Source of the DNA: a virus
Taxonomy: Duplodnaviria; Heunggongvirae; Uroviricota; Caudoviricetes
Virus record (IMG/VR): IMGVR_UViG_2541047911_000001
Location: 1-15,556 of that record
DNA: 15,556 nt
Direction: 5' to 3' (one strand)
Shown: in pieces, positions 2,826-15,556 of the stretch
Numbering within the stretch: position 1 is the stretch's first letter
Layout of the letters: each line of letters begins with the position of its first letter
The notes under the pieces: generated by a model
Database searches by the model: none
Told to the model about the DNA's origin: nothing
Seen by the model: only the letters and a program-made list of their open reading frames with translations
Made by a program: the position numbers and the translations under genes

Positions 2826-2953
2826 CTGGTTGAGTATACAGTAGTAGACTTTGAGCGACGAAAGAAAAGGCTGTGTCTAGGGTCGCTCCCGAAAATCCGT
2901 ACACCTCGACGGACTGGTACAGCCACTACAGTAGAGGACGCTGAGGTGTGCGT

Positions 2954-3751
2954 ATGATTGATATTCATGCCGAATTAAACGAATACAAAAAAGATTTTAT
3001 TTCTTTACGTGAATTTCTTGAGGTCGTGCTTAAGGTCGCTGGTGATGATTATGATGTTTCAGATGTCATAACTTGGATACTCAGGAGAATAAGCGGAGAA
3101 CATATCCGCCTGTACACAGTAAATGAATTTAAGCTGTTGGAATCTTTTTGTAACCCGTATCGGGATGAATTTGATAATGATGTTCTTTATAGAAATCTGA
3201 ATGCGGTTCGGAAACGTGGTTGTTTACCTGGTGAGAGGGATGAAAATGGTTTTCTGGTGTCCGGTTATTGGGAAGATCCCGAATTTGAGAACATTGGATT
3301 TATAAGGGGTGAAATTTTCGCAATTTTTCCCGATGTCCTTGACGCGTTAACGAAGCTGGAAGGCGCTAACTCTTCTGAAAATGACGAGGCACAAGGACGC
3401 GATATTGAAAAGAAAGAGTTGCGTACAGAGGATGATTTATTATCCCAAATCGCAATGCTGGAAAAAGAAAACGCAGAGTTAAGGGCAAGGATAGAGCAGT
3501 TAGAGCAAGAGCGCCCGATACACTTATATAAATACTGGGATAAAGACCCATTAGCTAAGGCTATTGAGATTAGAAACAGAGAGTGGGCCAATTACGATCC
3601 AGAAAATGATTTTGCCACCAGGGGAAATCAAGAAGCGATAACCAGGGAGCTTAAGCAGTGGGGGGCAAGTAATGCACTTGCAACGCTCATAGAGAGGACT
3701 GCCTGCCCTATTAACCGAGACAACAGCCAAAAGAACGCAAAGCCGGATTAA
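2954..3751 (+). CDS. hypothetical protein, 265 aa, acidic with a coiled-coil/leucine-zipper-like segment; possible accessory gene
   Basis: ATG at 2954 preceded by GAGG (2944-2947); the ORF track starts it at the in-frame GTG 2948. Visibly lower GC than the flanking int. Coiled-coil-like segment LLSQIAMLEKENAELRARIEQLEQE. No family recognised. Confidence 0.6.
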   Translation: MIDIHAELNEYKKDFISLREFLEVVLKVAGDDYDVSDVITWILRRISGEHIRLYTVNEFKLLESFCNPYRDEFDNDVLYRNLNAVRKRGCLPGERDENGFLVSGYWEDPEFENIGFIRGEIFAIFPDVLDALTKLEGANSSENDEAQGRDIEKKELRTEDDLLSQIAMLEKENAELRARIEQLEQERPIHLYKYWDKDPLAKAIEIRNREWANYDPENDFATRGNQEAITRELKQWGASNALATLIERTACPINRDNSQKNAKPD

Positions 3752-3766
3752 CGCACCATACCGCAT

Positions 3767-3909
3767 ACCCTGAGGGTGATTTACTGTTACCCTGAGGGTA
3801 TTTTTTTATCTTCCCCGTCAATTTTACCATCACCCTTAGGGTAGATTTCCTCCCGATTACCATCACCCTTAGGGTAGATTTCCTTCCGGTAACCATTAGG
3901 CCTGAGGGT
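3767..3909. promoter_or_regulatory. Array of five ACCCT(G/T)AGGGT palindromes, including a perfect 25-bp direct repeat, upstream of the alpA-like gene
   Basis: ACCCTGAGGGT at 3767-3777 and 3789-3799; ACCATCACCCTTAGGGTAGATTTCC at 3826-3850 and 3859-3883 (33-bp periodicity); GCCTGAGGGT at 3899-3909. Confidence 0.55.
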
Positions 3910-3978
3910 ATGAAAATATTCGTTATTTCTGTGCCATGATTACCTCGTCAAATTGAGTAGACGTTATGAGGTAAATAT

Positions 3979-4176
3979 ATGTCAAATACGCTTATTCGTT
4001 TAACAGAAGTTCAGCGTAGAACTGGATATAGCAAGGCATGGATTTATCGCCTTATGGGGCAAGGTAAATTTCCTGCATCAGTTAAAATTGGCTCGCGAGC
4101 TATTGCTTTCGTTGAGAGTGAAATTGACGAGTGGATTAATCAGCGTATTGCGGAATCACGCGGAACAGCTACCTGA
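3979..4176 (+). CDS. alpA: AlpA-family small HTH transcriptional regulator (prophage regulatory protein / excisionase-like), 65 aa
   Basis: Translation MSNTLIRLTEVQRRTGYSKAWIYRLMGQGKFPASVKIGSRAIAFVESEIDEWINQRI matches the AlpA/Xis-type pattern; GAGG Shine-Dalgarno 7-8 nt upstream; int-proximal position typical of P4-like and PICI islands. Symbol denotes family membership only. Confidence 0.75.
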   Translation: MSNTLIRLTEVQRRTGYSKAWIYRLMGQGKFPASVKIGSRAIAFVESEIDEWINQRIAESRGTAT

Positions 4177-4253
4177 TTAAATGGCTACGGGGCTATTGCC
4201 CCCAGCTATCCACCAGCAAATAAAAGTAACTTAATTCGATAGCAGGAGTTTTT

Positions 4254-5054
4254 ATGAAATTTCCAAAAATGCCCGTACAGGGGCGGGGCTTCGTTCGGCC
4301 TGAAAACCAGAATCTGCAAAATCTCGGCGAAATTATCCCGATTATTTCCGGCGTTATTGGCGGGAGTGAAACCAATATTGTTAGTGCCAGAGCGTTACAT
4401 AAGGCGTTAGGTGTAGGGCGCGTTTTCCGTTCGTGGATCAAGGGGCGCATTGAAGAATACGGCTTCACGGAAGGCGTGGATTATGAGGTTGTTGAATATT
4501 TGAGCCGACCCGATCCGGTGAGCGCAAAATCTCGCCAGCAAACAGCTCTTGAGTACATCATCACCGTGAACATGGCGAAAGAACTGGCGATGGTCGAACG
4601 TACCGAACAGGGCCGCGCCGTTCGCCAGTACTTTATCAAATGCGAGGAGGAGCTACACAAGGTTGCGCCTGTTCGTTCCGCAGCGTTACGCCGGGAACTG
4701 AAAGCCCGTATCACAGTTGCCAGCTACTTTAAGCCAATGTGTGCCGCGCTGGAGGCGTACCGGGCTGAACTGGGTAAAAACACACTCCAGCACCACTACA
4801 CCACGGAAGCGAACATGCTGGCGCGTATCGTGCTGGGTGGCATGACTGCAAAACAGTGGGCACTGGCGAACGGCATTACAGGCGAACCACGCGACCACAT
4901 GAGCACGTTGCAGCTTGAGCACCTTTCTTACCTTGAGCAGAGCAATATCACGCTGATTGAGTTAGGCCAGGACTACCACCAGCGGAAGGCTGAATTAATT
5001 CGTCTTTCGCAGCGTTGGTTAGCCCGTCGCATGGAGGAAAACAGCCATGTGTAA
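4254..5054 (+). CDS. AntA/AntB-like phage antirepressor-domain protein, 266 aa
   Basis: CAGGAG Shine-Dalgarno before the ATG; N-terminal region (…SARALHKALGV…FRSWIKGRIEEYGFTEGVDYEV… and …TALEYIITVNMAKELAMVERTEQGRAVRQYFIKCEEEL) resembles the AntA antirepressor N-terminal domain; C-terminal half unassigned. Confidence 0.6.
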   Translation: MKFPKMPVQGRGFVRPENQNLQNLGEIIPIISGVIGGSETNIVSARALHKALGVGRVFRSWIKGRIEEYGFTEGVDYEVVEYLSRPDPVSAKSRQQTALEYIITVNMAKELAMVERTEQGRAVRQYFIKCEEELHKVAPVRSAALRRELKARITVASYFKPMCAALEAYRAELGKNTLQHHYTTEANMLARIVLGGMTAKQWALANGITGEPRDHMSTLQLEHLSYLEQSNITLIELGQDYHQRKAELIRLSQRWLARRMEENSHV

Positions 5055-6354
5055 CGCTCTGACCGTTACAAAAAGAGAAAGCGCCCCGTTGCCGGAGCGC
5101 CTTTGTGAACGAATAGCCTACTGCGCCATATTGCTTACTGTCTACGAGGCAGATTATAGCGTTGTGGTCGCACAGAGTGAAGGCGCTGATCACCGTTACT
5201 ACAGCACGCCAGAAATGCAGAATATTTTGCTGCAAAATGTCGTTGGTCACACTGTCCGGAAAGCAAAAAATTTTGCTGGTGGCGCGACTGATGCGATTTT
5301 GTCAGGTCGCCAGGTGCTGATCAATCTGATGTCTGATTTCGTTCTGGATAAAACAAAGGCGACCGCAGAGGGCCGCCAGTGGGAAAGCTACATACTTGAA
5401 CGCATCGCCAACAATGCCAGATTTGCGGCTGGTGGGCAATGTGTCAGCTTTGCACCAATGACTCTATGTTTAACTGAGGGTCATTATGGTGAATATGCTG
5501 GCTTGCTGGTGGGCTATTCCTGCTCTTTAACATTGCCATGCCGCGATGTTTTACAGGTATGCGACCCCATTTTTGTGCGCCTGTACTCTTTAAGGAATTT
5601 CTCAAGGATAAACGCACAGGGCGCGAATCTGTTTGACTCATGCTCGTACGCTATCTTTCTGCGCTGTCTTTTCCGTGCCGGTGATGGTGTATTGGTTGAT
5701 TCTTTGTTGGTCATGGCGCAGCCCTGTAAAACGATGCACCGTAGTTCCTCACACCACGGCGCTGGTGATGGTTACTCCTGTTCTTTGGCCTTGCGGCGCT
5801 GGCGGTATTCAACTTCTCGCTTTAATGCTGCTGTTACAAACTGCCCTGTACTTTCACCAGGCATTTTTACCGCCTCAACATTGTTCATAACTTCATGCGG
5901 AACCCTTGCCGCAACTGTTTGTGATTTTGCGTTTACTGCTTTTGTCGCCATGTTGTGTACCCCTTACAAAAAACAAATGCAGTATGCAGGAAAAAAAATA
6001 AGTGTTCAACACTTGACGTGTTTAACACCTGGGCTTAAATTGGTGTTCAACACCTTGTTGATGCAAGGTGCAGAAACGACAACGCCCCGCAGTGGTGGCA
6101 CACATGCAGGGCGTCTAACCACCAACGATAGCAAGAGTATCGAGGTAGCTATGAGAAATCATACCACACACCCGCAAGGGCGGGACTCGCACAACCTGAA
6201 TAAATACATCTGGCGTTTTATCGCCCTGAGCACGGCACAACCGCGCGTAATTCACATCGAGGCCACCAGCGAACAGGAAGCACGCCAGCAATCTCCTGAT
6301 GGCTGCGTGATGGTATTCGCCGCCCGTATTCGCCAGGAGGTGGAACATGTGTAA
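5047..6354 (+). CDS. Long ORF (435 codons) of doubtful integrity: plausible gene start at 5047 with a protein-like first ~140 codons; the central part is probably not coding
   Basis: Start is translationally coupled to the upstream gene (ATGTGTAA overlap, GGAGGA Shine-Dalgarno). Codons ~150-370 are Cys/Ser/Thr-rich with many rare codons (AGG, ATA, CGG, TTA) and overlap an antisense gene and an operator cluster. Only the last ~67 codons look coding again. Confidence 0.3.
   Translation: MCNALTVTKRESAPLPERLCERIAYCAILLTVYEADYSVVVAQSEGADHRYYSTPEMQNILLQNVVGHTVRKAKNFAGGATDAILSGRQVLINLMSDFVLDKTKATAEGRQWESYILERIANNARFAAGGQCVSFAPMTLCLTEGHYGEYAGLLVGYSCSLTLPCRDVLQVCDPIFVRLYSLRNFSRINAQGANLFDSCSYAIFLRCLFRAGDGVLVDSLLVMAQPCKTMHRSSSHHGAGDGYSCSLALRRWRYSTSRFNAAVTNCPVLSPGIFTASTLFITSCGTLAATVCDFAFTAFVAMLCTPYKKQMQYAGKKISVQHLTCLTPGLKLVFNTLLMQGAETTTPRSGGTHAGRLTTNDSKSIEVAMRNHTTHPQGRDSHNLNKYIWRFIALSTAQPRVIHIEATSEQEARQQSPDGCVMVFAARIRQEVEHV
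5772..5951 (-). CDS. Ribbon-helix-helix-like small DNA-binding protein (59 aa), candidate repressor, antisense to the long ORF
   Basis: Minus-strand ATG at 5951, stop TAA at 5774-5772; translation MATKAVNAKSQTVAARVPHEVMNNVEAVKMPGESTGQFVTAALKREVEYRQRRKAKEQE has a strand-helix-helix pattern and host-like codons; AAGGGG Shine-Dalgarno upstream; divergent from the operator cluster at 6002-6053. Below the 60-aa cutoff of the ORF track. Confidence 0.5.
   Translation of the reverse strand: MATKAVNAKSQTVAARVPHEVMNNVEAVKMPGESTGQFVTAALKREVEYRQRRKAKEQE
6002..6053. promoter_or_regulatory. Three 11-bp palindromic operator-like sites GTGTT-N-AACAC overlapping a rightward promoter-like TTGACG-17-TAAATT
   Basis: GTGTTCAACAC at 6002-6012 and 6043-6053, GTGTTTAACAC at 6018-6028; -35-like TTGACG 6013-6018 and -10-like TAAATT 6036-6041. 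Confidence 0.55.
6151..6354 (+). CDS. small hypothetical protein (67 aa); likely the real first gene of the rightward operon (3' end of the long ORF)
   Basis: ATG at 6151 with GAGG 5-8 nt upstream, about 100 bp downstream of the operator/promoter cluster; ends …IRQEVEHV with an ATGTGTAA overlap into the next gene. Confidence 0.4.
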   Translation: MRNHTTHPQGRDSHNLNKYIWRFIALSTAQPRVIHIEATSEQEARQQSPDGCVMVFAARIRQEVEHV

Positions 6355-6571
6355 TGCAACATGGCCTGATGCAGCGGTAGACGCTATCAAAACGCTGATG
6401 GATTCACTTATTGAGATTTCTGCTATCGCTGGTGTGGCGCATAAACACGCAGCCAGAGAATCAGAATGCATCTCCCATTATTTAGCATTTGTGCAGCTAA
6501 AAGCCGATCAGGCACTGGATAAGGCCGGAAAAATTATCATGGCTGATGTGCAGGAGGTGCACCATGCATAA
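6347..6571 (+). CDS. small hypothetical protein, 74 aa
   Basis: AGGAGG Shine-Dalgarno ~8 nt upstream; start overlaps the upstream stop (ATGTGTAA). Confidence 0.5.
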   Translation: MCNATWPDAAVDAIKTLMDSLIEISAIAGVAHKHAARESECISHYLAFVQLKADQALDKAGKIIMADVQEVHHA

Positions 6572-6929
6572 CCTGTCAATTTCTGACCTTAACAGCATTC
6601 AGTTTGACGAGAAATTTACCGGGCAGTTGCTGGTCAATGTGGAGAACGGGCGCATAGTGCGTAATTACCACCTGCCGGATGGTGCAATTGCCGGAAGCGT
6701 TGAAGCATTGCTGGAACTGGCGGAACGTGCGCGACTGATTAAGCCGTCAACGAGCCATCACGATGATGATCTGCATTTTACCGGGCGTATGGTGAGTCAC
6801 TACGAAAACGGCGTTGAAGTATCCCGCGAACGGCTGCGTGATGATTGCTGTTTCGGCACACTGCCGGAATTTATCGAGTTGCTGACCAGTTGCGGTTATC
6901 AGGTCATTCAGGGGGGTAAACATGCGTGA
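6564..6929 (+). CDS. hypothetical protein, 121 aa (MHNLSISDL…)
   Basis: ATG at 6564 preceded by GGAGG and overlapping the upstream stop (ATGCATAA); preferred over the track's 6546 start, which would place the Shine-Dalgarno inside the coding region. Confidence 0.55.
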   Translation: MHNLSISDLNSIQFDEKFTGQLLVNVENGRIVRNYHLPDGAIAGSVEALLELAERARLIKPSTSHHDDDLHFTGRMVSHYENGVEVSRERLRDDCCFGTLPEFIELLTSCGYQVIQGGKHA

Positions 6930-7155
6930 TGATCGTTTTAATTCCCTGAAACGGGAATTTGATGGCGCACCGGAAGATGCAGCGGGCGCATTGTTGAGCG
7001 TTGCTGACATGATGAAAGCTGCATATTTTCTTATCAATACCAGTGGCTACAAGTCAGAGGGTGAAATGATTCTTAGTATTGCGTCGGACTATGCGGAATA
7101 TGTGGCAGAGACGCGTTACAGAAGAAAATTCACGGAGGATGTAAGCCATGCATAA
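6922..7155 (+). CDS. small hypothetical protein, 77 aa
   Basis: ATGCGTGA start/stop overlap with the upstream gene; G-rich Shine-Dalgarno. Confidence 0.5.
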   Translation: MRDDRFNSLKREFDGAPEDAAGALLSVADMMKAAYFLINTSGYKSEGEMILSIASDYAEYVAETRYRRKFTEDVSHA

Positions 7156-7348
7156 TCATGAAGCGCATGTACCCGTAGTGCTTAATGTGCCAGATGATTT
7201 CACCGGACGCGTACTGGTTTACCTGGATAAAGGGAAAGTGAAATCACAATGCCGACTGAAAAGTAATGAGATTGTTGGTTCTCCTGAATTTTTTTCTGAA
7301 CTTTGTATTCGTGCGGAAATAAAACCGGAACTGCTGACAGGAAAATAA
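7148..7348 (+). CDS. small hypothetical protein, 66 aa
   Basis: ATGCATAA overlap with the upstream stop; GAGGATG Shine-Dalgarno. Confidence 0.5.
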   Translation: MHNHEAHVPVVLNVPDDFTGRVLVYLDKGKVKSQCRLKSNEIVGSPEFFSELCIRAEIKPELLTGK

Positions 7349-7352
7349 AACC

Positions 7353-7643
7353 ATGAAAAAGAAAAATTCTGGCTTTACTGCCAGCGGCCTCTCTCGGCCT
7401 GAAATCCGCCCCGGTGATATTTTCCGGGACACCAGACGCGGGGGACGGGTGGTTATTCGTCACGTTACGCCAGGCAATATCACCTACCGCCGTGAGGCTT
7501 ACGAATATGACTGCGTAATGCCGCGCCGTCAGTTTGATCGTGATTTTATTGTGGTGGAAAACAAACAACAGGCAGTGGCGAGACGTGCAGCCACGAATAT
7601 TAAAAAAATCCGGGCAATGTTGGTTGCGGGAGGTAAGAAGTGA
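7353..7643 (+). CDS. small basic hypothetical protein, 96 aa
   Basis: AGGAAA Shine-Dalgarno; Arg/Lys-rich; stop overlaps the GTG start of the replication gene. Confidence 0.5.
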   Translation: MKKKNSGFTASGLSRPEIRPGDIFRDTRRGGRVVIRHVTPGNITYRREAYEYDCVMPRRQFDRDFIVVENKQQAVARRAATNIKKIRAMLVAGGKK

Positions 7644-9445
7644 AAAACGCACCGAGTCTAAAATATCAGCCGAAGGATAAATTCACTGAGGTAATCATTT
7701 TTGCCGGGATGGATGCTTACGCCCATGCTCAACACTGGATTGAAAGTGAAGGACGAAAACACGGCGATAACGTGCCTCCTGTTTACCTGGGACCAAAGCA
7801 ACTGGCAGACCTGGCGAATATCCGCATTATTGACGAGAAACGCCGTTTTGCGCGTGTCTATATCGCGGGGGAGATAGAGCCAATCCAGATCAATACTATC
7901 GCTGAAAAGCTGGCGCTGGCTGGCGTACAGGAGGCGAAATTATACAAAGGTATCACCGACCAGGAACCGGAGAACTGGCGCGACTACCTGCAACGGATCC
8001 GCGAACAGGCTGAGCACGGGGAAGTTTCAGTGATGAAATTAGCTACAAAAAATAGTGGTCTACCCAAGCCTGCATTAAATCAGATGGGAGCCAGCCAGAG
8101 AGGGGAAGTGTTACTTGAACATTATGGAGGAGCACTGGCGATAAATGATGATTCTGATGTAGTTCACCATTACAACGGAATTGTTTGGGAGCCTGTATCT
8201 GATAAGGAACTCCAGCGGTCTATGGCGAAGATTTTTATTGATGCCGAAATTAGTTATTCGCAAAACGCCATTAAATTTGCCGTAGAGACAATGAAATTGA
8301 GTCTACCTGTTATGGGGGGAGCGGACAGAAATCTTATTGGGTTCAGTAACGGTGTTTTTGATATCAGGACAGGAAATTTTCGGGAACACAACAAAAATGA
8401 CTGGTTGTTAAATGCCAGTGAATTACCGTTCAGCCCGCCAGAAGAGGGGGAAACGCTGGCAACACATGCGCCGAATTTCTGGAAGTGGTTGCGTCGTTCG
8501 GTGGCGGATAATGCTCGTAAAGCGGATCGCGTACTGGCGGCATTATTCATGGTACTGGCGAACCGGTACGACTGGCAGTTATTCCTTGAGGTAACGGGGC
8601 CGGGCGGAAGCGGTAAAAGTGTGATGGCGGAGATTTGTACCATGCTGGCGGGTAAGGCCAATACAGTATCGGCGAGCATGAAGGCGCTGGAAGACGCGAG
8701 GGAACGAGCGTTAGTGGTGGGATATTCTCTGATTATCATGCCTGACATGACCCGCTACGCAGGTGATGGTGCTGGGATTAAGGCCATTACAGGCGGTGAC
8801 AAGGTGGCTATCGATCCGAAACACAAAGCGCCCTATTCCACGCGCGTTCCTGCGGTAGTGCTGGCAGTAAACAATTATGCCATGTCATTCAGCGACCGTA
8901 GTGGGGGGATCTCGCGTCGACGAGTAATATTTAATTTCTCTGAGGTTGTACCAGAGAACGAACGCGATCCGATGCTGGCGAAAAAGATAGAAGGGGAACT
9001 GGCAGTAGTGATTCGCCATTTGCTTACACGATTTGCCGACCAGGACGAAGCGAAAAGACTACTTTATGAGCAGCAAAAATCAGAAGAAGCACTGTTGATA
9101 AAGCGTGAAGGTGATTCGCTGGTGGACTTCTGCGGTTATCTGATGTCGTTGGTTAAATGTGAGGGAATGATAGTAGGTAATGCAGAAATAGTGCCATTTA
9201 GTCCGAGGCGATATCTGTATCATGCTTATTTGGCTTATATGTCTGCGCATGGTCTGGGAAAACCGGTATCACTGACACGCTTTGGTACAGATATGCCAGG
9301 GGCAATGGCTGAGTACGGAAAGGAGTACAAGCGGGCTAAATGCACTAAAGGTCCAGATAAAGGGCGAACGATCACAAATGTTCTGTTAGATAAAGATGCT
9401 GATGGATGGTTACCAGCAACGGCAGGCATTAACGACAGAACATGA
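7640..9445 (+). CDS. P4-family primase/helicase-type replication protein (P-loop NTPase, SF3-helicase-like), 601 aa, GTG start
   Basis: Walker A GPGGSGKS and a downstream hydrophobic-run-plus-Asp Walker B candidate (…LIIMPD…) are visible; size, position (followed by iterons) and architecture match P4 alpha C-terminal or PICI pri-rep proteins; no obvious zinc-binding primase motif. Confidence 0.8.
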   Translation: MKNAPSLKYQPKDKFTEVIIFAGMDAYAHAQHWIESEGRKHGDNVPPVYLGPKQLADLANIRIIDEKRRFARVYIAGEIEPIQINTIAEKLALAGVQEAKLYKGITDQEPENWRDYLQRIREQAEHGEVSVMKLATKNSGLPKPALNQMGASQRGEVLLEHYGGALAINDDSDVVHHYNGIVWEPVSDKELQRSMAKIFIDAEISYSQNAIKFAVETMKLSLPVMGGADRNLIGFSNGVFDIRTGNFREHNKNDWLLNASELPFSPPEEGETLATHAPNFWKWLRRSVADNARKADRVLAALFMVLANRYDWQLFLEVTGPGGSGKSVMAEICTMLAGKANTVSASMKALEDARERALVVGYSLIIMPDMTRYAGDGAGIKAITGGDKVAIDPKHKAPYSTRVPAVVLAVNNYAMSFSDRSGGISRRRVIFNFSEVVPENERDPMLAKKIEGELAVVIRHLLTRFADQDEAKRLLYEQQKSEEALLIKREGDSLVDFCGYLMSLVKCEGMIVGNAEIVPFSPRRYLYHAYLAYMSAHGLGKPVSLTRFGTDMPGAMAEYGKEYKRAKCTKGPDKGRTITNVLLDKDADGWLPATAGINDRT

Positions 9446-9473
9446 TACGAAATTTATAAGTTGAAACTTAAAA

Positions 9474-9809
9474 GTAGACGGTTGGTAGACAGATACACTT
9501 AACCCTCTACCAACCATCTACTAATTAATGTTTTGAATTATATAGGTATTTTTAATGTGGTAGAGAGGTGGACAGTTTATTTTATATTTCTAAACCACGG
9601 GGGTATCTAAAAATAGATAGTTATGGGTTCATTTTTAAAATTTTTCTTTTAACTATCTACACTGTCTACCATTTAGTAAAAGTCATTAATTATCAATGTA
9701 TTAATACTGTAGAGAGTTGGTAGACAGTTTGCAGATTGTTTTTTTGTTATGTATTAATAACATTAAATAAATCAAACAATTATATCGGTAGACAGTTGGT
9801 AGACAGTTG
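9474..9809. repeat. Origin-like AT-rich region with multiple GGTAGACAGTT-type iterons in both orientations
   Basis: GTAGACGGTTGGTAGACAG 9474-9492 with inverted partner CTCTACCAACCATCTAC 9505-9521; GTGGTAGAGAGGTGGACAGTT 9557-9577; ATCTACACTGTCTACC 9655-9670; CTGTAGAGAGTTGGTAGACAGTT 9707-9729; GGTAGACAGTTGGTAGACAGTTG 9787-9809; A/T-rich spacers, e.g. 9620-9650. Confidence 0.65.
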
Positions 9810-9814
9810 TAACG

Positions 9815-10357
9815 ATGGGGCAAAGCATGACTAAGCTGACCATTAACAGAAAACCGAAAGGCATTTACGGCACGCCGCAGAAAACGACGCAGGCGGCGCA
9901 GGAGCAGGATAAAACCACATCGGCGCATAAAGTGATGCCCGGTAACCAGAAAGCGCAGCAAAAGCCCACAGGGGCGACACCGTGGCGGCATATGACCAAA
10001 CGCCAGCGCAAAAACCGCAGGCGCGTTAACCGCCTCACTGAGTTGTGGCCTGACTTATTCAGCCGGGAAGCACCGAAGCCGCTTAAGGTGGGGATATTCG
10101 ACGACCTGATGCAGGATCTCGCCGTCAGGGGGCTGGCATTCGGGCCAGGGGCATTGCGTGCGACGCTGGCATCTTATGCGCAGTGTCCGCACTATTACCG
10201 CGCCTTAATGGCTGGTGGGGTACGCTACGACCTGAAAGGCCAGCCGTGCGGCGAGGTGACACCACAGGAACAACAGGACGCAGAAACGCGGCTGGTGGCG
10301 CTGAATGAGAAGCGCAAACGCCAGCGCCGGGCAGCAAAGGAGACAATAGGCGCATGA
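9815..10357 (+). CDS. ProQ/FinO-domain RNA-binding protein with a basic N-terminal extension, 180 aa
   Basis: Residues …LWPDLFSREAPKPLKVGIFDDLM…LRATLASYAQCPHYYRALMAGGVRYDLKGQPCGEVTPQEQQDAETRLVALNEKRKR align by eye with the E. coli ProQ N-terminal FinO-like domain (…RPLKIGIFQDLV…[35 protein letters not shown]…); an alternative start at ATG 9827 is possible. Confidence 0.75.
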   Translation: MGQSMTKLTINRKPKGIYGTPQKTTQAAQEQDKTTSAHKVMPGNQKAQQKPTGATPWRHMTKRQRKNRRRVNRLTELWPDLFSREAPKPLKVGIFDDLMQDLAVRGLAFGPGALRATLASYAQCPHYYRALMAGGVRYDLKGQPCGEVTPQEQQDAETRLVALNEKRKRQRRAAKETIGA

Positions 10358-10641
10358 TTCACGACAGCAAAGCGGAAGCACTGGAAGCGCGTGGTCTGTA
10401 CCGGAGAGCGGCGGCGCGGTGGGCTGAGGTCATCATGCTGGCGAATGATGACAAGGCACGGGAACAGGCGGCAAAACGTCGCGCGGAATGTATCCACAAG
10501 GCAGCACGCCCACCAGCAAAGCAGGATAATTTCGGGGAGATGCGCGAAACCATCAGCCGGGCACATGCCGGAATGGGATTACATCAGCCCAATGGTAAGG
10601 CATTCAGGAAATATCCTGGATCGAAAAATTGCAGTCAGTGA
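10354..10641 (+). CDS. PerC-family-like small transcriptional activator candidate, 95 aa
   Basis: Start overlaps the upstream stop; N-terminal MIHDSKAEALEARGLYRRAAARWAEV resembles, from memory, the conserved start of PerC/Pch-type proteins of prophage-like elements; tentative. Confidence 0.45.
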   Translation: MIHDSKAEALEARGLYRRAAARWAEVIMLANDDKAREQAAKRRAECIHKAARPPAKQDNFGEMRETISRAHAGMGLHQPNGKAFRKYPGSKNCSQ

Positions 10642-10644
10642 CGG

Positions 10645-10672
10645 AGGCCGGGATTTTTCCCGGCCTTATTGC
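10645..10672 (+). terminator. Rho-independent terminator-like hairpin after the perC-like gene
   Basis: GGCCGGG (10646-10652), loop ATTTTT, CCCGGCC (10659-10665), followed by a T-rich tract. Confidence 0.55.
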
Positions 10673-10751
10673 ATTTCATTAATTGCAATATTTATTGCTA
10701 TCATTTCATTTTGTGCAATTGTTGTGGTTGTTATTATTCGGGAGAAAAATC

Positions 10752-10919
10752 ATGAAAGGTCACGGAGTAAAGCCAGTTTTACTTTCCCGGAGGCAGATTG
10801 AAGCCCTGCAACGTATCCAGGACGAAGAGCGTCAGAAATCTGTGCTTGGTGTGGCGCCGTCGATTCATGTTATTGCCCGGCAACTGATGGATAAGGCACT
10901 TAAAGAGGTGAGACTGTGA
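10752..10919 (+). CDS. small hypothetical protein, 55 aa, possible DNA-binding regulator
   Basis: ATG at 10752 with GGGAGAAAAA Shine-Dalgarno; the ORF track's upstream start at 10683 lacks a ribosome-binding site and runs through the promoter region; translationally coupled to the next gene. Confidence 0.45.
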   Translation: MKGHGVKPVLLSRRQIEALQRIQDEERQKSVLGVAPSIHVIARQLMDKALKEVRL

Positions 10920-11188
10920 AATTAAATATCAGAGTGGATAAACGCCAGCTATGGCAGAAAAAAGAGAACAGCGAGGCATTCAGGGCGTTGCTGGTGGAAA
11001 ATCTTCAGCACCGGTTCAGTGGAGAGTTGCCTGATGCTCTAGGGAAGAAACTTGAATCCCTGACGGTGGAAATTGGCGATTATGGCTTTGTTGATGTTGA
11101 AAGCACGACTGCCAACACAGAAATCGTAAAACAGGTCGTCAATGATGTAATGAAAACCACGCTTAGCCAGCCATCCTGGCGCAACTGA
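10916..11188 (+). CDS. hypothetical protein, 90 aa
   Basis: GTGA start/stop overlap with the upstream gene; no family recognised. Confidence 0.5.
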   Translation: MKLNIRVDKRQLWQKKENSEAFRALLVENLQHRFSGELPDALGKKLESLTVEIGDYGFVDVESTTANTEIVKQVVNDVMKTTLSQPSWRN

Positions 11189-11287
11189 ATCAGTAAGGGG
11201 CGGTTATTGCCCCTTTCCTCCATACCCACAACGCATTCCCTTTCCGCATGAAATTATTTTTTATCGTATACGCATGAGGTGAGCTAC

Positions 11288-11815
11288 ATGTTGATGAGTA
11301 AAGCCGAATACGCCAAATACAAAGGCGTAAGCCGCCAGACAGTTTACGACTGGATCGAGAAAGGCGAAGTGATCATGTCTGGCAAAAAAATTGATGTGGA
11401 GGCGACAGAGCAGCGGAACAGCCCACCGGCACAAGGGAAAGACACCGTTTCTGAAATGTGGCCAGAAAGAACGCTGGAAATGACGTGGGGCGAGTTCTGG
11501 AAAGCAGTTAAGGCCAGAGACGGTAAAATTCCTTCGCCAGTAACGGACGATGACATACAGCAGCGTGTGCTGTATGCAGCCGGGGAATTAGGCTGGGAAG
11601 TGCACTTTCTTGATGATGGTGCTATCTGCCTTGAGGATGATGAAGGGCAGCATTACTTTGAAAAATACAATTTGCGAGGTAATGCCAGGCTGGCAATTCG
11701 TATGCTGCGTTGCGAACTCTGCTATGTTGCAGGTGATTATCCCGATGAACTGGAATCATGGAGTGAAACCGGGCTAAACGCCCTGGCTGAATGGGAAAAA
11801 TCAGACCATCAATGA
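11288..11815 (+). CDS. HTH-domain protein, 176 aa; candidate small-terminase-like / packaging-redirecting DNA-binding protein
   Basis: ATG at 11288 with GAGGTG Shine-Dalgarno 9 nt upstream (track uses GTG 11279); N-terminus MLMSKAEYAKYKGVSRQTVYDWIEKGEV is a winged-HTH pattern like the lambda Nu1 N-terminus and the AlpA/MerR class; followed immediately by a repeat array. Confidence 0.55.
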   Translation: MLMSKAEYAKYKGVSRQTVYDWIEKGEVIMSGKKIDVEATEQRNSPPAQGKDTVSEMWPERTLEMTWGEFWKAVKARDGKIPSPVTDDDIQQRVLYAAGELGWEVHFLDDGAICLEDDEGQHYFEKYNLRGNARLAIRMLRCELCYVAGDYPDELESWSETGLNALAEWEKSDHQ

Positions 11816-11818
11816 CAT

Positions 11819-12023
11819 CAAAAAGTGTCAAGTTGAGCAGCTTGCCAGGTTGACACTTTACACTCTGAACGCGAAAAAGTGTCAACCTCGCTGTAAACCC
11901 CGCCGTTACTGGCTTTGCGCCAGATTTACCACGTCAAAAAACCGAAAAATCGCGAAAAGTGTCAAGTTGCCATGCTTAGAAATGCTAAGGTTTGATAAGG
12001 TTTTTCGCGAAAAAGTGTCAACC
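11819..12023. repeat. Four direct copies and one inverted copy of (CG)AAAAGTGTCAA(G/C): candidate packaging (cosB-like) or regulatory site
   Basis: Direct copies at 11821-11833, 11874-11887, 11955-11969 and 12010-12022; inverted copy TTGACACTTT at 11850-11859. Confidence 0.5.
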
Positions 12024-12053
12024 AGCCCCCTAAGATTTCCTAAGGTGTAAACC

Positions 12054-12233
12054 ATGACCATCACCGAAGCCGATTTGCTGGAGATGATCCGCAGCATTGC
12101 CGGAATCAAACAACCAGCAAGCAAAATTAACAGGTGTTCAGCGCCTGTTTCCGTTGTGCTGCAACAGGAACGCCACCAGCATGATGATGTGAGGCCGTAT
12201 CAGTGGCGGAAACCGAACAGGCTGCGACGGTGA
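12054..12233 (+). CDS. possible small ORF, 59 aa, upstream of the cargo gene
   Basis: ATG at 12054 with AAGGTG 7 nt upstream; just under the ORF-track cutoff; hairpin-plus-T-run at ~12273-12296 downstream; coding status uncertain. Confidence 0.3.
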   Translation: MTITEADLLEMIRSIAGIKQPASKINRCSAPVSVVLQQERHQHDDVRPYQWRKPNRLRR

Positions 12234-12673
12234 GCGGGGCGTTATAGTAAGCCAACAGCCAAGCCAAACATTAAGCCTAAGGGTAGGGCTTTTTTGTGGC
12301 TGGTGGCGTAATGCCAACATTGTTACATGATGTTTTGAGGTATTATCTGCATGTTCGTGGTGAGGAACCACCAGAACTGATGAGCTTTTGTTTATGCATG
12401 TACTGCATGAAAACTGTCCTATAAAGTGGGGGTAGGTGTGCTGAGGAGAACATTGTGAGCTACGCCAAATTAAATTGTGTCGGGGGTGAACAAGTTTCTT
12501 GATAGGTGTCAGTAGGCACCTATAGTTATAGGCTTCTTCAATTTTGTGTGCACAATATTTTGTATTGATTGGGGATAGGGTTGCACGCAAAATTAAAAAA
12601 TGTATATTTATTAACGTGTATTTGATGATTTTTAAAAAAAATATTTCTCTATGTTTATCATAAAAGGTTTTTT

Positions 12674-14272
12674 ATGAGCGTGGCAATAAAAACAATGACA
12701 CCAATGTCATATTCTATAAAAGTTGATGCGATTAAGAAAAGATTGTCATATTTTAGTGATGTTTCTTTTTTGAGAAATTTTTATGAACACTTCCAAAAAG
12801 TAAGGGATGTCGAGGTGGGTATTGTTTCCAATTTCCCTTGGTGTTGCTATCTGGCAATGAAATGGAAGTTTTGCATGAAGGAAAAAAAGCCTGCAAAAGA
12901 AATGAGTAAAAATGATTTTATTGATATTATCAACTTAATCTATAACTTGCAACTAGAAGCATCTAATTTAATCGTTGATGATAAAGTTATGCTAAGCCTT
13001 AGACGAATGGTGATAAATCAGTTGCTTTATCAATCAACTGATAAATTTAATGCTAATTCATTAACAAGACAGTATATTTGGTATTGCTTGAATGATGAAT
13101 CATATTATAAAGATAAGTTTTTAGAATGTACTGGTTTACATTTGGAAAGCTATTACAAAATGGCATGTTATTTTACTGCTATTTCATGTATTAATCCTGA
13201 TGTAGAATCAGAGGTTATTCCATTTAAACACTTGATAATAAACTTGGTTCCGATATTTGGTCCGGAACAAGTGAAAAAATTTTTGGAATTAACATGCTTA
13301 AAAATTGATGGTGTAAGAGATTTTATTGCCCCATATAAATTGGATAAAAACATTACCGCTGAGTATTATGAAGATACACCATTCCTCAGTAAACCAATGT
13401 TTTTAGATGGCGATGGTGTAGTGATATTATGCAAAAGAATCATGAAGTCAGGGTTTGTCAACCTAGTTCCAGAATTGTTCAAGCAGGTCTATAAGGAATC
13501 TTATAAAGAAAAATTTGGTAAGACGATGGAACTTTATATTTCTCGCTTTCTTGATAAGTACAATTATAACTTTAAGACTGAAAGGGAGGTTAAGAAGATT
13601 TATAGTGATAATGCAATAAAAAATTGCAAGTCCGTAGATTTTGTTATTTCAGAGGGAGATTCAATAGTTTATATTGACTCGAAGGCAATAGAGCCTGCAA
13701 AGTTCGTTAAAACATCTAATAATGCTCAGTTGCTAAAGGAAAGGTTGAATAAGAGTTTTATTAAAGGGATTTATCAAGGTCAGGAATGTGCTTTTAACTT
13801 AAATAAAATAGAGATGAGAAAACCATCTTCGAAAGATTCAATGTTAATTGTGGTGCATCGGGATCATCATATATCAAATGCAATGGTTGTGCAGGATTTT
13901 ATTAACCCTGATTTATCAACTGAGTTATCTGAAAAATATCATAGTACCCCCATTGATCTAAAAAGAATTTACTATATAACAATTGATGAGTTCGAATTAT
14001 TACTTATGATGTGTAAACAGAAAGAACTATCTATTAATGAGTTTATTGATATGTGTGTGGAAAAAGATTCATTCCCTCATACTCAGAAGTCTAATCTAAG
14101 CATGCACATATATGAATTTGCACCAGAGGGTATTGATGATGATCAATTGATTGTAAAAGGAAGAGACTTACTGATTGATGATGTTATTGAAAATATGAAA
14201 GAGAGTGCATCAAAATGGTCTGGGAAAGTTGATATGTATCTTAAAATAAAAGATTATATTTTTAATTGGTAA
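12674..14272 (+). CDS. AT-rich orphan protein of unknown function, 532 aa; candidate anti-phage defence / abortive-infection effector with a possible PD-(D/E)xK-like core
   Basis: Long uninterrupted ORF with a composition very different from the rest of the island; AAAAGG Shine-Dalgarno 8 nt before the ATG; AT-rich promoter-like leader; perfect hairpin downstream; last gene before attR. Confidence 0.8.
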   Translation: MSVAIKTMTPMSYSIKVDAIKKRLSYFSDVSFLRNFYEHFQKVRDVEVGIVSNFPWCCYLAMKWKFCMKEKKPAKEMSKNDFIDIINLIYNLQLEASNLIVDDKVMLSLRRMVINQLLYQSTDKFNANSLTRQYIWYCLNDESYYKDKFLECTGLHLESYYKMACYFTAISCINPDVESEVIPFKHLIINLVPIFGPEQVKKFLELTCLKIDGVRDFIAPYKLDKNITAEYYEDTPFLSKPMFLDGDGVVILCKRIMKSGFVNLVPELFKQVYKESYKEKFGKTMELYISRFLDKYNYNFKTEREVKKIYSDNAIKNCKSVDFVISEGDSIVYIDSKAIEPAKFVKTSNNAQLLKERLNKSFIKGIYQGQECAFNLNKIEMRKPSSKDSMLIVVHRDHHISNAMVVQDFINPDLSTELSEKYHSTPIDLKRIYYITIDEFELLLMMCKQKELSINEFIDMCVEKDSFPHTQKSNLSMHIYEFAPEGIDDDQLIVKGRDLLIDDVIENMKESASKWSGKVDMYLKIKDYIFNW

Positions 14273-14276
14273 TTAA

Positions 14277-14304
14277 GCAAGGGTGTTATTATCAACACCC
14301 TTGC
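14277..14304 (+). terminator. Perfect 11-bp-stem hairpin after the cargo gene (terminator-like; no strong T-run)
   Basis: GCAAGGGTGTT (14277-14287), loop ATTATC, AACACCCTTGC (14294-14304). Confidence 0.5.
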
Positions 14305-15048
14305 TCATAGTCTTACAATATTAAATGTTGTGTTTTTTATTTATATATTTTATTGCCCGTCAAGCTATTAATTCATCTCGTTGTTTGAGATAGGTTGAGC
14401 ATTTGTATTTTTTTATCAATTTTATCTGTATGAGCTTAAGCAGCTTCAATAATATCTGCGTTAAATTACGCTTCATTCAGAGACGTGCTTGCTATTGACA
14501 TGTAATCCATGTGCAACAAGATTCCTGCCATAACTTATGCGTTTCAGAGCCGAATCATGGACTGCTTTAAGTCATTTTTGTAGGGAAAACATGTTCACAT
14601 GTCAGCACTGATTTGTTTCATCACATATCCACTATCTCGAATTCCTGTGTCGATAGATGAATGCAGACGGAAATATGTAAATTTTGTGCACGCTCTGCTA
14701 TTAAGCGAAAACGAGCGTGGGTATATCAACTAATAATTGCCCTCATTAACATAGGTGGTGGCGGGTATAATCTCTGTAACCCAGTTGTTCGTGACTACCC
14801 ACCTCGTCAAATTTTCACACCCGCGAAATAAAAAATACTTCACGCTAGTGGTTATCCTTGGGCATCCACCAGCCCTTCATCATTGCCTGCCGGTGAGGCT
14901 GAGGCTCGAAGAAAAAGAGTGCTAGATAGTCGATTTTTGCCTGGTTTGGGATAAGGGAAAATTTATTGGGGGTACTTTTGGGGGTATCTATAAAAATGAA
15001 ATATGAAAATATCATTAAATATCAATGTATTTGTTGTTTATGTTTTGT

Positions 15049-15217
15049 TCCTATTATCGCCCATTCTAACGTCTCCCCAAGTCTACTCAAGTATTTAAAA
15101 ACCTCTTATAATCAGTATATTAATGCCCCTTTTAGTCTTTTGACGTCTATTTAAGTACCCCAAACTCTACAAGCAATTGAGGGGATTTGCTGTTCAGTTT
15201 AGTGGAGATACCCCCAA
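15049..15217. repeat. attR of the first island / left junction of a second tandem island
   Basis: TCCTATTATCG at 15049-15059 followed by a near-identical copy of the sequence found after thrW at 1445-1610. Confidence 0.8.
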
Positions 15218-15556
15218 GTGAAACTCAATGCCCGTCAAATAGACACTGCCAAGCCAAAAGAGAAGGCTTACAAGTTGGCTGATGGTGGTGGTCTGTACCT
15301 CCTGGTAAAACCTGGTGGAGGAGAATATTGGCGTCTCAAGTATCGTGTAGCTGGTAAAGAGAAGCTGTTAGCACTAGGTGTGTATCCTGAGGTCACCTTA
15401 GCTGATGCTCCTGCAAAACTTGAAGAAGCTAAAAGAGGTATCTCTGGGGGAATCGATCTGATGGAAGTGAAGCGAGAGGAAAAGATTGCCCGGGAAACGC
15501 AGTTAAACAACACCTTCAAAGATATTGCCCTTGAGTGGCACAGTAACAAATTATAA
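15218..15556 (+). CDS. int: Second P4-type integrase, N-terminal 112 codons only; in-frame TAA at the window edge
   Basis: GTG start in the same context as the first integrase; protein closely similar to the first integrase N-terminus with scattered substitutions; TAA at 15554-15556 where the first copy has AAA. Confidence 0.7.
   Translation: MKLNARQIDTAKPKEKAYKLADGGGLYLLVKPGGGEYWRLKYRVAGKEKLLALGVYPEVTLADAPAKLEEAKRGISGGIDLMEVKREEKIARETQLNNTFKDIALEWHSNKL

What the first reader, a model, noticed from the sequence alone, without database searches (positions are those of the whole stretch)
9446..9814. Iteron-rich origin-like region immediately downstream of the primase/helicase gene
The 370-bp intergenic region is AT-rich and contains at least seven copies of GGTAGACAGTT-like iterons in both orientations, including a large inverted pair (9474-9492 and 9505-9521) and tandem doublets (9707-9729, 9787-9809), with A/T-rich spacers. 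This is the expected location and form of a satellite ori bound by the upstream initiator-helicase.
Basis: partly seen in the sequence, partly recalled or inferred. Interest (0 to 1): 0.45.

Follow-up and report, generated by a model that had tools for sequence, protein, structure and literature searches.

The report
Replication origin of an E. coli phage satellite

Summary
The 369-381 bp gap (9446-9814/9826, 29% GC) carries 12 good copies and 1 degenerate copy of (T)GGTAGAnrGTT. They form six doublets plus one single, in both orientations, separated by spacers of 71-86% AT. This is far beyond chance.

The window is a ~13.6 kb island at tRNA-Thr (int, alpA, Icd-like, DUF4222, helicase, PerC, GapS1 cargo), syntenic in its left half with the PICI EcCICFT073. 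EcCICFT073's pri plus downstream iteron region was shown to drive plasmid replication (Fillol-Salom 2018). That region uses the same GGTAGAYAG core.

The upstream protein ends in a winged-helix domain homologous to the solved origin-binding domain of phage P4 alpha (PDB 1KA8, E=1e-18). Across 17 relatives, the repeat sequence changes together with the last segment of that domain, while the layout of the repeats stays the same.

Two corrections:
- "Primase" is only a name. The N-terminal domain has no detectable primase motifs.
- In P4 the site directly after alpha is crr, not ori. Here a single cluster appears to combine P4-ori-like modules and, more weakly, a crr-like half.

Verdict: new member of a known kind. 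No experiment exists for this element.

The parts
7640..9445 (+). Initiator-helicase gene (601 aa). It is a P4-alpha/EcCICFT073-Pri family protein that lacks the Zn-ribbon and Toprim primase module.
   Evidence: Pfam D5_N (aa 156-285), DUF5906 SF3 helicase (aa 319-427) and Pox_D5 (aa 490-567). TIGR01613 primase_Cterm. 43% identity to EcCICFT073 Pri. 48.9% identity to P4 alpha over aa 146-592.
7640..8023 (+). N-terminal domain (aa 1-128) of the initiator, function unknown. It may be a degenerate TOPRIM fold without catalytic residues.
8597..8620 (+). Walker A motif GPGGSGKS (aa 320-327) of the SF3 helicase core.
   Evidence: Invariant in alignment A2 and visible in the BLASTP alignment.
9110..9415 (+). 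C-terminal winged-helix origin-binding domain (aa 491-592). The segment after the EYGKEY motif (KRAKCTKGPDKGRTITNVLL) tracks iteron type.
   Evidence: phmmer hit to PDB 1KA8, the P4 alpha origin-binding domain, E=1.1e-18. Co-variation tables.
9455..9543 (.). Extended imperfect palindrome centred on iteron doublets A and B. It could form a cruciform or a hairpin.
   Evidence: RNA fold of 9440-9560 gives -32.2 kcal/mol, z=-4.9. The DNA fold shows the same hairpin. Inverted repeat I3. Present in L006, absent from the canonical relatives.
9473..9494 (+). Iteron doublet A (AGTAGACGGTT GGTAGACAGAT), 11-bp phasing.
9501..9522 (-). Iteron doublet B (GGTAGAGGGTT / AGTAGATGGTT on the minus strand). It is the left arm of P4-ori-like module 1.
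9523..9558 (.). AT-rich spacer 1 (36 bp, 86% AT) between B(--) and C(++).
   Evidence: The 35-43 bp AT spacer between (--) and (+) iterons is also seen in P4 ori and in all relatives.
9559..9577 (+). Iteron doublet C (GGTAGAGAGGT / GGTGGACAGTT), 8-bp phasing with overlap.
   Evidence: The second copy reads GGTAGACAGTT in L006.
9578..9650 (.). Central AT-rich stretch. It overlaps the least stable 100-bp duplex of the window (9606-9705) and is a candidate unwinding element.
9612..9622 (+). Degenerate single iteron D (AATAGATAGTT), of doubtful function.
   Evidence: Lowest PWM score, 11.3. L006 changes the otherwise invariant T.
9651..9670 (-). Iteron doublet E (TGTAGATAGTT / GGTAGACAGTG on the minus strand). 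It is the left arm of P4-ori-like module 2.
9671..9707 (.). AT-rich spacer 2 (37 bp, 84% AT). It contains TATCAATGTATTA (9691-9703), which matches the IHF consensus and a spacer motif conserved in P4 ori and the relatives.
9708..9729 (+). Iteron doublet F (TGTAGAGAGTT GGTAGACAGTT), 11-bp phasing.
9730..9786 (.). AT-rich spacer 3 (57 bp, 82% AT). It contains a second IHF-consensus match, AATCAAACAATTA (9770-9782).
9787..9808 (+). Iteron doublet G (two perfect GGTAGACAGTT copies), directly upstream of the next gene. A terminal (++) doublet is present in all relatives except the truncated L019.
9815..10357 (+). Downstream ProQ/FinO-domain gene (RefSeq start at 9827). It marks the right edge of the origin region.
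   Evidence: Pfam ProQ, E=4.9e-23. RefSeq annotation of identical loci.

Best explanation
The gap at 9446-9814 is the vegetative replication origin of a ~13.6 kb phage-satellite-type island (PICI/P4 family) integrated at tRNA-Thr.

Proposed mechanism:
1. The 601-aa protein encoded just upstream binds the GGTAGAnrGTT iterons through its C-terminal winged-helix origin-binding domain. Doublets spaced 11 bp apart place two domains on one face of the helix.
2. The inward-facing sets B(--)/C(++) and E(--)/F(++) each bracket a 36-37 bp spacer of 84-86% AT. This is the same arrangement as in P4 ori and EcCICFT073.
3. Multimerisation of the SF3 helicase on these sites melts the AT-rich DNA, and the protein loads itself as a replicative helicase.
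4. The protein has no recognisable primase module, so priming must come from the host or from read-through transcription.

Shown here: the repeats and their statistics, the homology of the DNA-binding domain, the shared iteron core with an experimentally validated origin, the co-variation of iteron and protein, and the conserved architecture.

Inferred: binding, melting, helicase loading and the source of primers.
For: - Repeats are real and far beyond chance. The region contains the least stable 100-bp duplex of the window.
- The protein has D5_N, an SF3 helicase core with an intact Walker A motif, and a P4-alpha-type origin-binding domain.
- EcCICFT073 Pri is 43% identical over its full length. 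Its downstream region carries the same GGTAGAYAG core in both orientations. The pri-ori segment supported plasmid replication, and deleting pri or ori impaired it (PMC6092414).
- All 16 relatives sampled from E. coli and 13 other species, plus P4, carry an iteron cluster starting 13-35 bp after the stop codon.
- Iteron type follows the C-terminal segment of the winged-helix domain, not the rest of the protein. L003-L005 are 91-92% identical to the window protein in the helicase core but 32% in that segment, and use GGTGAACAG. L011 has a different, true Zn-ribbon plus Toprim N-terminus but the same segment, and uses GGTAGACAG. L015 differs from L014/L017 by T->N and V->M in that segment, and uses GGTATACAC instead of ATGAACAC.
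- The architecture (--)[35-43 bp AT](+)... is shared with P4 ori.
- There is only one iteron cluster in the whole island, and likewise only one in EcCICFT073.
Against: - There is no experiment on this element.
- The window's layout departs from the canonical one: it has an extra doublet A that forms a palindrome, longer spacers, and no single (-) iteron before the last doublet.
- Substitutions between the window and E. ruysiae L006 are only non-significantly rarer in iterons (6.5%) than in spacers (11.6%), p=0.15.
- In P4 the site directly downstream of alpha is crr, a cis-acting element, and initiation occurs at a separate ori.
- The initiator lacks a recognisable primase.
- The island lacks the capsid genes of EcCICFT073, so it might be a degraded element.
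Confidence: 0.8

Rival explanations
1. The cluster is only a crr-like element. The initiator binds it and it is required in cis, but replication starts at a separate origin elsewhere, as in phage P4, where crr lies directly after alpha and ori is 4.5 kb away.
For: The P4 record places crr at 4291-4590, right after alpha (4636-6969, minus strand), and ori at 9086-9809. The second half of the canonical cluster in relatives resembles a crr unit: L003 gap positions 185-240 match crr at 79% over 58 nt.
Against: No second iteron cluster exists anywhere in the ~13.6 kb island or in EcCICFT073. The first half of the canonical cluster aligns better with P4 ori: 73% over 109 nt, with the same (--)[35 AT](+)(---) layout. 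The window has two such ori-like modules. In EcCICFT073, pri plus this region alone sufficed for plasmid replication (PMC6092414).
Confidence: 0.06
2. The repeats are mainly a transcriptional control region. They would be operators through which the initiator or another regulator controls the downstream ProQ/FinO-PerC operon. The A/B palindrome would act as a terminator or attenuator, or would encode an RNA partner for the ProQ/FinO protein.
For: The last doublet ends 6-18 bp before the next start codon. Weak sigma-70-like matches (9 of 12) overlap iterons C, D and E. The A/B palindrome folds well as RNA, z=-4.9, and sits 28 nt after the stop codon, where P4 has its alpha terminator.
Against: The number of promoter-like matches is no more than in shuffles, 3 against 2.3. 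The hairpin has a 16-nt loop and no U-tract, and was not called as a terminator. There is no Rfam family in the gap. The palindrome is absent from relatives that have the same kind of cluster. The downstream gene differs among relatives (ProQ/FinO, small ORF plus SSB, capsid) while the cluster architecture stays constant. A regulatory side role is not excluded.
Confidence: 0.05
3. It is a relic origin of a decaying island. The sequence form is preserved, but neither the island nor the origin is functional any longer.
For: The island lacks the capsid and packaging-redirection genes of EcCICFT073. In close relatives the PerC gene is frameshifted and the region after it differs by more than 1.5 kb. 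The initiator has no primase module.
Against: The initiator ORF is intact and keeps the motifs that are invariant across the family. Three iterons are perfect, and the doublets are maintained in E. ruysiae with changes toward the consensus. EcCICFT073 Pri has the same primase-less architecture and is functional.
Confidence: 0.08

Closest known systems
Replication origin of Gram-negative PICIs, type element EcCICFT073 (Fillol-Salom et al. 2018, ISME J, PMC6092414)
   Same: - It lies immediately 3' of the pri/rep gene.
- It has sets of iterons in both orientations around AT-rich DNA.
- It uses the same iteron core, GGTAGAYAG.
- The initiator is 43% identical over its full length and has the same domain order, including the primase-less N-domain.
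- The left half of the island is syntenic: int, alpA, YlcI/YnfO, Icd-like, DUF4222, pri, then PerC further downstream.

   Different: - The gap is longer (369-381 bp against 288 bp) and more AT-rich (29% against 42% GC).
- Iterons are 11-mers ending in GTT, with 11-bp phasing.
- There is an extra doublet forming a palindrome, two (--)[AT](++) modules, and no lone (-) iteron.
- The C-terminal segment of the winged-helix domain differs and carries a 5-residue insertion.
- The island sits at tRNA-Thr, which is not among the att sites in that paper's Table S1. It carries ProQ/FinO and GapS1 instead of capsid genes.

Phage P4 ori and crr, bound by the alpha protein (GenBank NC_001609 annotation; origin-binding domain PDB 1KA8)
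   Same: - The initiator is 48.9% identical to alpha residues ~331-777 and has a homologous origin-binding winged-helix domain.
- The ori module is two inverted iterons, a ~35 bp AT-rich spacer, then an oppositely oriented iteron.
- A conserved spacer motif sits just before the right-hand iteron.
- An iteron cluster lies directly after the initiator gene.

   Different: - The P4 iteron is TGTTCACC/GGTGAACA, not GGTAGACAG.
- P4 splits its sites into ori and crr, 4.5 kb apart. Here there is one cluster.
- P4 alpha has a Zn-ribbon plus Toprim primase. This protein does not.
- There are no sid, delta or psu genes.

[quoted passage not shown]
   Same: The logic and placement are the same: the ori is immediately 3' of the initiator, iterons flank an AT-rich melting region, and the initiator-ori pair is element-specific. 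This is as summarised in PMC6092414. The helicase core has a distant match to PDB 7OLA, E=2.7e-8.
   Different: The DNA-binding domain and the iteron sequences are different, and the transcriptional organisation is divergent. Direct homology of the origins was not tested here.
Iteron-type plasmid origins (Rep_3/RepA-type initiators with DnaA boxes)
   Same: Both have directly repeated initiator sites next to an AT-rich unwinding element, and both can have inverted copies.
   Different: The initiator here is itself an SF3 helicase, not a Rep_3 protein that recruits DnaB. No DnaA box with 1 mismatch or fewer lies in the gap.

Membership tests
Gram-negative PICI replication origin (EcCICFT073 type) | The origin lies immediately 3' of the replication initiator (pri/rep) gene. 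| tested here: met
   The first iteron starts 28 nt after the stop codon at 9445. The placement is the same in 16 relatives.
Gram-negative PICI replication origin (EcCICFT073 type) | Sets of iterons flank an AT-rich region. | tested here: met
   B(--)/C(++) flank 36 bp of 86% AT. E(--)/F(++) flank 37 bp of 84% AT. F and G flank 57 bp of 82% AT.
Gram-negative PICI replication origin (EcCICFT073 type) | The initiator is homologous to a validated PICI Pri/Rep. | tested here: met
   43% identity over 596 aligned residues to EcCICFT073 Pri, E=6e-173. The iteron core is the same.
Gram-negative PICI replication origin (EcCICFT073 type) | The fragment supports initiator-dependent replication. | not testable with these tools
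   Only shown for EcCICFT073 in the literature (PMC6092414).
Gram-negative PICI (the element as a whole) | int and alpA are present, transcription is unidirectional and rightward, the size is ~8-15 kb, and there are no phage lysis or tail genes. | tested here: met
   int 1611-2825, Phage_AlpA 3979-4176, nearly all long ORFs on the + strand, island ~1442-15060.
Gram-negative PICI (the element as a whole) | The element is induced by a helper phage and packaged with high frequency, with a cos/pac site and interference genes such as capsid-redirecting or Rpp-type proteins. | tested here: inconclusive
   There are no capsid homologues. The only candidate is an HTH_17 / weak terS-like ORF at 11279-11815. 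Induction is not testable.
Gram-negative PICI (the element as a whole) | The attachment site is exclusive to PICIs. | not tested
   The island is at tRNA-Thr next to proBA. This site is not in Table S1 of PMC6092414. Its use by prophages was not examined.
P4-type origin (alpha protein with ori plus crr) | The initiator carries the alpha-type C-terminal origin-binding winged-helix domain. | tested here: met
   PDB 1KA8, E=1.1e-18, aa 491-592.
P4-type origin (alpha protein with ori plus crr) | Type I iteron TGTTCACC. | tested here: not met
   The iteron is GGTAGAnrGTT. Relatives L003-L005 and L007-L010 do use GGTGAACA.
P4-type origin (alpha protein with ori plus crr) | Two separate iteron regions (ori and crr) several kb apart, both required in cis. 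| tested here: not met
   There is a single cluster in the island. For P4 the annotation shows two.
P4-type origin (alpha protein with ori plus crr) | The initiator has a Zn-ribbon plus Toprim primase domain. | tested here: not met
   No Pfam, PDB or hhalign match for aa 1-150. L011, L016 and L019 do have Toprim.
P4-like satellite (the element as a whole) | psu, delta and sid capsid-size and transactivation genes are present. | tested here: not met
   None was found among the ORFs scanned with Pfam, NCBIfam and PHROGs.
Iteron plasmid origin (Rep_3 type) | A Rep_3-family initiator and DnaA boxes next to the iterons. | tested here: not met
   The initiator is an SF3 helicase. The only DnaA-box-like hit in the gap has 2 mismatches and overlaps an iteron.

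The most novel reading that the evidence does not exclude
The single origin cluster of this satellite family may be a fusion of the two sites that P4 keeps 4.5 kb apart, or their ancestor: a first half with P4-ori architecture and a second half resembling a crr unit. Specificity would be set by a short segment at the end of the initiator's winged-helix domain, so that replication-specificity groups could be read from sequence.

In the window's lineage the origin has been remodelled. The ori-like module is duplicated, a palindrome has been added, and the AT tracts are longer. It is served by an initiator whose N-terminal domain may be a catalytically dead TOPRIM. That would imply initiation without a self-encoded primase, using host DnaG or a read-through transcript.
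Probability: 0.35. Interest if true: 0.45.

Novelty: new member of a known kind. Interest (0 to 1): 0.25.

Why it matters
This is mostly a confirmation. It shows that a satellite origin can be recognised from raw sequence, and it ties an uncharacterised tRNA-Thr island, which carries a GapS1 anti-phage gene, to the experimentally validated EcCICFT073 replicon.

Two by-products are of modest use to people working on phage satellites:
- There is a clear protein-DNA co-variation series: six iteron types and six variants of the last segment of the winged-helix domain, on one conserved architecture. It could guide swap experiments on replication specificity and on incompatibility between co-resident satellites.
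- Many 'DNA primase family' initiators of these islands lack any recognisable primase module, which raises the question of how their origins are primed.

Tried and rejected
- DnaA boxes: there is no box with 1 mismatch or fewer in the gap, and the window-wide count is near chance.
- Promoter and terminator scan: the number of promoter-like sites does not exceed shuffles, and there is no + strand terminator.
- Rfam: there is nothing in the gap. The only hits are the tRNA and an int-alpA RNA elsewhere.
- The 51-aa ORF at 9568-9723 inside the gap is not annotated in any identical RefSeq locus and consists of iterons and AT tracts. I treated it as non-coding.
- Selection test on iterons against spacers, window versus E. 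ruysiae: right direction but not significant, p=0.15.
- A second iteron cluster at the P4-ori-equivalent position upstream of alpA: the GGTAGA strings at 3840 and 3873 belong to a different palindromic motif, ACCCTKAGGGT.
- N-terminal domain:
  - Pfam, a PDB profile search and hhalign against Toprim were negative.
  - The single-sequence AF2 model was too poor to use, pLDDT 55.7.
- The literature search for P4 crr/ori biochemistry in the open-access library returned nothing useful. Statements about alpha binding to ori and crr rest on the GenBank annotation, the PDB entry and general knowledge.

Full report
**1. Observation**

The stretch between the stop codon of the 601-aa ORF (7640-9445) and the next gene is 29% GC. 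The next gene starts at ATG 9815, or at 9827 in RefSeq. The flanks are 45-61% GC.

A search for GGTAGACAGTT with up to three mismatches finds 13 sites between 9473 and 9808:

| Name | Position | Strand | Phasing |
|---|---|---|---|
| A | 9473/9484 | + | 11 bp |
| B | 9501/9512 | - | 11 bp |
| C | 9559/9567 | + | 8 bp |
| D | 9612 | + | single, degenerate |
| E | 9651/9660 | - | 9 bp |
| F | 9708/9719 | + | 11 bp |
| G | 9787/9798 | + | 11 bp |

- Aligning the 13 copies gives (T)GGTAGAnrGTT. T3, G5, A6 and G9 are invariant.
- Enrichment is extreme. Eleven of the twelve GTAGA[CGT][AG]G strings of the 15.5 kb window lie in these 381 bp. Markov simulations give a mean of 0.047 and a maximum of 3 in 20,000.
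- A motif-blind count of the best 9-mer family gives 10 copies, against at most 7 in 300 simulations.
- The spacers are 71-86% AT, apart from the 6-bp A/B spacer, and the least stable 100-bp duplex of the entire window is 9606-9705.

**2. Context**

The window is an island of about 13.6 kb inserted at tRNA-Thr(CGT), 1369-1444, next to proBA. A second, related integrase follows in tandem from 15218.

| Coordinates | Gene or feature |
|---|---|
| 1611-2825 | P4-type integrase |
| 2870-2937 | int-alpA RNA |
| 3979-4176 | AlpA |
| 4254-5054 | AntA |
| within the ORF 5047-6354 | Icd-like peptide |
| 7353-7643 | DUF4222 |
| 7640-9445 | helicase |
| 9446-9814 | the gap under study |
| 9815-10357 | ProQ/FinO-domain protein |
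| 10354-10641 | PerC |
| 11279-11815 | HTH_17 protein |
| 12674-14272 | low-GC GapS1 anti-phage gene |

The gap is 100% identical in at least 17 complete E. coli genomes and at least 99% identical in 69. It is 90-95% identical in 21 more. It is never annotated.

**3. The upstream protein**

- It has D5_N, an SF3 helicase core with Walker A GPGGSGKS, and Pox_D5.
- Residues 146-592 are 48.9% identical to the C-terminal two thirds of phage P4 alpha.
- Residues 491-592 match the solved P4 alpha origin-binding winged-helix domain, PDB 1KA8, at E=1.1e-18.
- Residues 1-150 match no Pfam family, no PDB sequence, and not the P4-type Toprim profile.
- By eye, 'TEVIIFAG' lines up with Toprim 'ETVIIAEG' but lacks the catalytic Glu. 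The 'AADND' acidic motif is replaced by a non-conserved 'AGxIx'.

So 'primase' is a family label, not a demonstrated or even predicted activity. The same N-domain also occurs in front of RepA/AAA_25-type and DUF927 helicases in other E. coli islands, always after a DUF4222 gene.

**4. Link to a validated origin**

Fillol-Salom et al. (2018, PMC6092414) describe Gram-negative PICIs as having, immediately 3' of the initiator gene, an origin made of iteron sets flanking an AT-rich region. They showed that the EcCICFT073 pri-ori segment maintains a temperature-sensitive plasmid. Deleting pri or ori impairs this.

One of their primers contains GGTAGACAGGGTAGACAG. I retrieved the locus from CFT073.

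- Its Pri is 43% identical to the window protein from end to end and has the same domain order.
- Its 288-bp downstream gap holds eleven GGTAGA-core iterons, consensus GGTAGAYAG, in both orientations.
- The left halves of the two islands are syntenic.
- The tRNA-Thr island is not among the elements listed in that paper's Table S1.

**5. Comparative test of the initiator-iteron relationship**

I collected 16 relatives: four from E. coli genomes and twelve usable loci from other species. With P4 that makes 17.

Every one has an iteron cluster beginning 13-35 bp after the stop codon. Six iteron types occur. Each goes with a distinct version of the segment that follows the conserved EYGxEY motif at the end of the winged-helix domain:

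| Loci | C-terminal segment | Iteron |
|---|---|---|
| window, L006, L011 | KRAKCTKGPDKGRTITN | GGTAGACAG |
| CFT073, L016, L019 | TRxxKGxxQTN | GGTAGAYA |
| L003-L005, L007-L010, P4 (KRHTKQGIQTN) | KRKTK(H/N)GxRSN | GGTGAACA |
| L013, L014, L017 | RKERKTRGVVTN | ATGAACAC |
| L015 | RKERKNRGMVTN | GGTATACAC |
| L012 | its own variant | GGCGGACAG |

Three contrasts are informative:
- L003-L005 are 91-92% identical to the window protein in the D5_N-helicase core but 32% in the segment, and they use a different iteron.
- L011 has a true Zn-ribbon plus Toprim N-terminus, 784 aa in all, but the window's segment and the window's iteron.
- L015 differs from L014/L017 by two residues in the segment and by the central bases of the iteron.

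The repeats therefore follow the C-terminal DNA-binding end of the neighbouring protein. They do not follow its N-terminus, the downstream gene or the host species. This is the pattern expected of cognate initiator sites. It is correlation, not proof of binding.

**6. Architecture**

The relatives share one layout:
(--) [35-43 bp AT-rich] (+) [~12 bp] (-)(--) [..] (++ or +++) [..] (-) [AT-rich] (++)

- **First half.** It is the layout of the annotated P4 ori. The L003 gap aligns with P4 ori at 73% over 109 nt. A short spacer motif, roughly ATCAryrynTTAA, sits 2-4 nt before the right-hand iteron in P4, L003, L009, CFT073 and L011. It also sits in the window at 9691-9703 and again at 9770-9782. 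In the window both copies match the IHF consensus WATCAANNNNTTR.
- **Second half.** It resembles a P4 crr unit, with 79% identity over 58 nt. This similarity is weaker.
- **P4 itself.** In P4, crr, not ori, lies directly after alpha. The family's single cluster therefore looks like ori-type and crr-type halves side by side.
- **The window and E. ruysiae L006.** These carry a variant with two ori-like modules, B(--)[36 AT]C(++) and E(--)[37 AT]F(++). A 57-bp AT tract precedes the terminal doublet G. The extra doublet A forms, with B, an ~89-bp imperfect palindrome.
- **Other clusters.** No other iteron cluster exists in the island or in EcCICFT073.

**7. Mechanism proposed**

The initiator's winged-helix domains occupy the doublets. 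Inward-facing sets bracket AT-rich DNA, which melts as the SF3 helicase oligomerises and loads itself. Primers come from the host or from read-through transcription, because no terminator separates the helicase gene from the origin on the + strand and the protein lacks a primase module.

Only the sequence features, the homologies and the co-variation are shown here. Binding, melting, loading and priming are inferred from P4 alpha and EcCICFT073.

**8. Rivals**

- **crr-only role.** This is unlikely, because there is no second cluster and because pri plus this region sufficed in EcCICFT073.
- **Purely transcriptional role.** This is unlikely, because the architecture stays constant while the downstream genes vary, and promoter-like matches do not exceed chance. 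A secondary regulatory role for doublet G or for the A/B palindrome remains possible.
- **Relic origin.** This cannot be excluded without an experiment. The island lacks capsid genes, and iterons are only non-significantly better conserved than spacers against L006.

**9. Verdict**

This is a new member, with a variant layout, of a known and experimentally characterised kind of origin.

Interest is low to moderate (0.25). The useful extras are:
- the iteron/winged-helix co-variation series;
- the ori-plus-crr reading of the cluster;
- the absence of a recognisable primase in the 'primase'.

Noticed in passing
[not shown]
   Followed up: partly
window 2870-2937 (+): Rfam int-alpA RNA (RF02996), 45.5 bits against a gathering score of 35.8, just downstream of the integrase gene.
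   Followed up: no
window 3768-3909: Five palindromic ACCCT(G/T)AGGGT sites, including a 33-bp tandem repeat at 3824-3889, lie upstream of alpA. They look like operators and are unrelated to the origin iterons, although two of them contain GGTAGA.
   Followed up: partly
window 11820-12023: Five copies of AAAAGTGTCAA(C/G), in both orientations, include an exact 18-nt repeat at 11870-11887 and 12006-12023. They lie between the HTH_17 / weak terS-like ORF (11279-11815) and a 59-aa ORF (12054-12233). This may be a second protein-binding array, such as a packaging or regulatory site.
   Followed up: no
window 12674-14272: A low-GC (~30%) gene matches the GapS1 anti-phage family (NCBIfam NF047931, 442 bits) at the variable 3' end of the island. 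Relatives carry different cargo at the same place.
   Followed up: partly
window 1442-1869 and 15061-15476: The attL-proximal region and the start of the integrase gene are repeated at 90-93% identity, and a second integrase gene starts at 15218. Two related islands therefore sit in tandem at tRNA-Thr.
   Followed up: partly
window 9815-10357: A ProQ/FinO-domain RNA-chaperone gene lies directly after the origin, where relatives carry a small ORF plus an SSB gene. No RNA partner was identified.
   Followed up: no
window 9691-9703 and 9770-9782; P4 ori (L020 ~9340-9355); L002, L003, L009, L011: A short spacer motif (~ATCAryrynTTAA) is conserved 2-4 nt before the right-hand iteron across elements with different iteron types. 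In the window both copies match the IHF consensus exactly (3 matches in the window against 1.06 expected).
   Followed up: partly
window 5047-6354: A 435-aa ORF has an Icd-like / transcriptional-repressor match only in its last ~90 residues. RefSeq annotates only a short Icd-like gene here, plus small opposite-strand genes (YlcI/YnfO), so the long ORF is probably not real.
   Followed up: no
L021 (LR881103.1, 'Escherichia phage vB_KppS-Ant', 16.5 kb): A record deposited as a phage encodes an initiator 72.7% identical to the window protein, together with terminase, capsid, portal and connector genes. It looks like a capsid-forming satellite rather than a complete phage.
   Followed up: no
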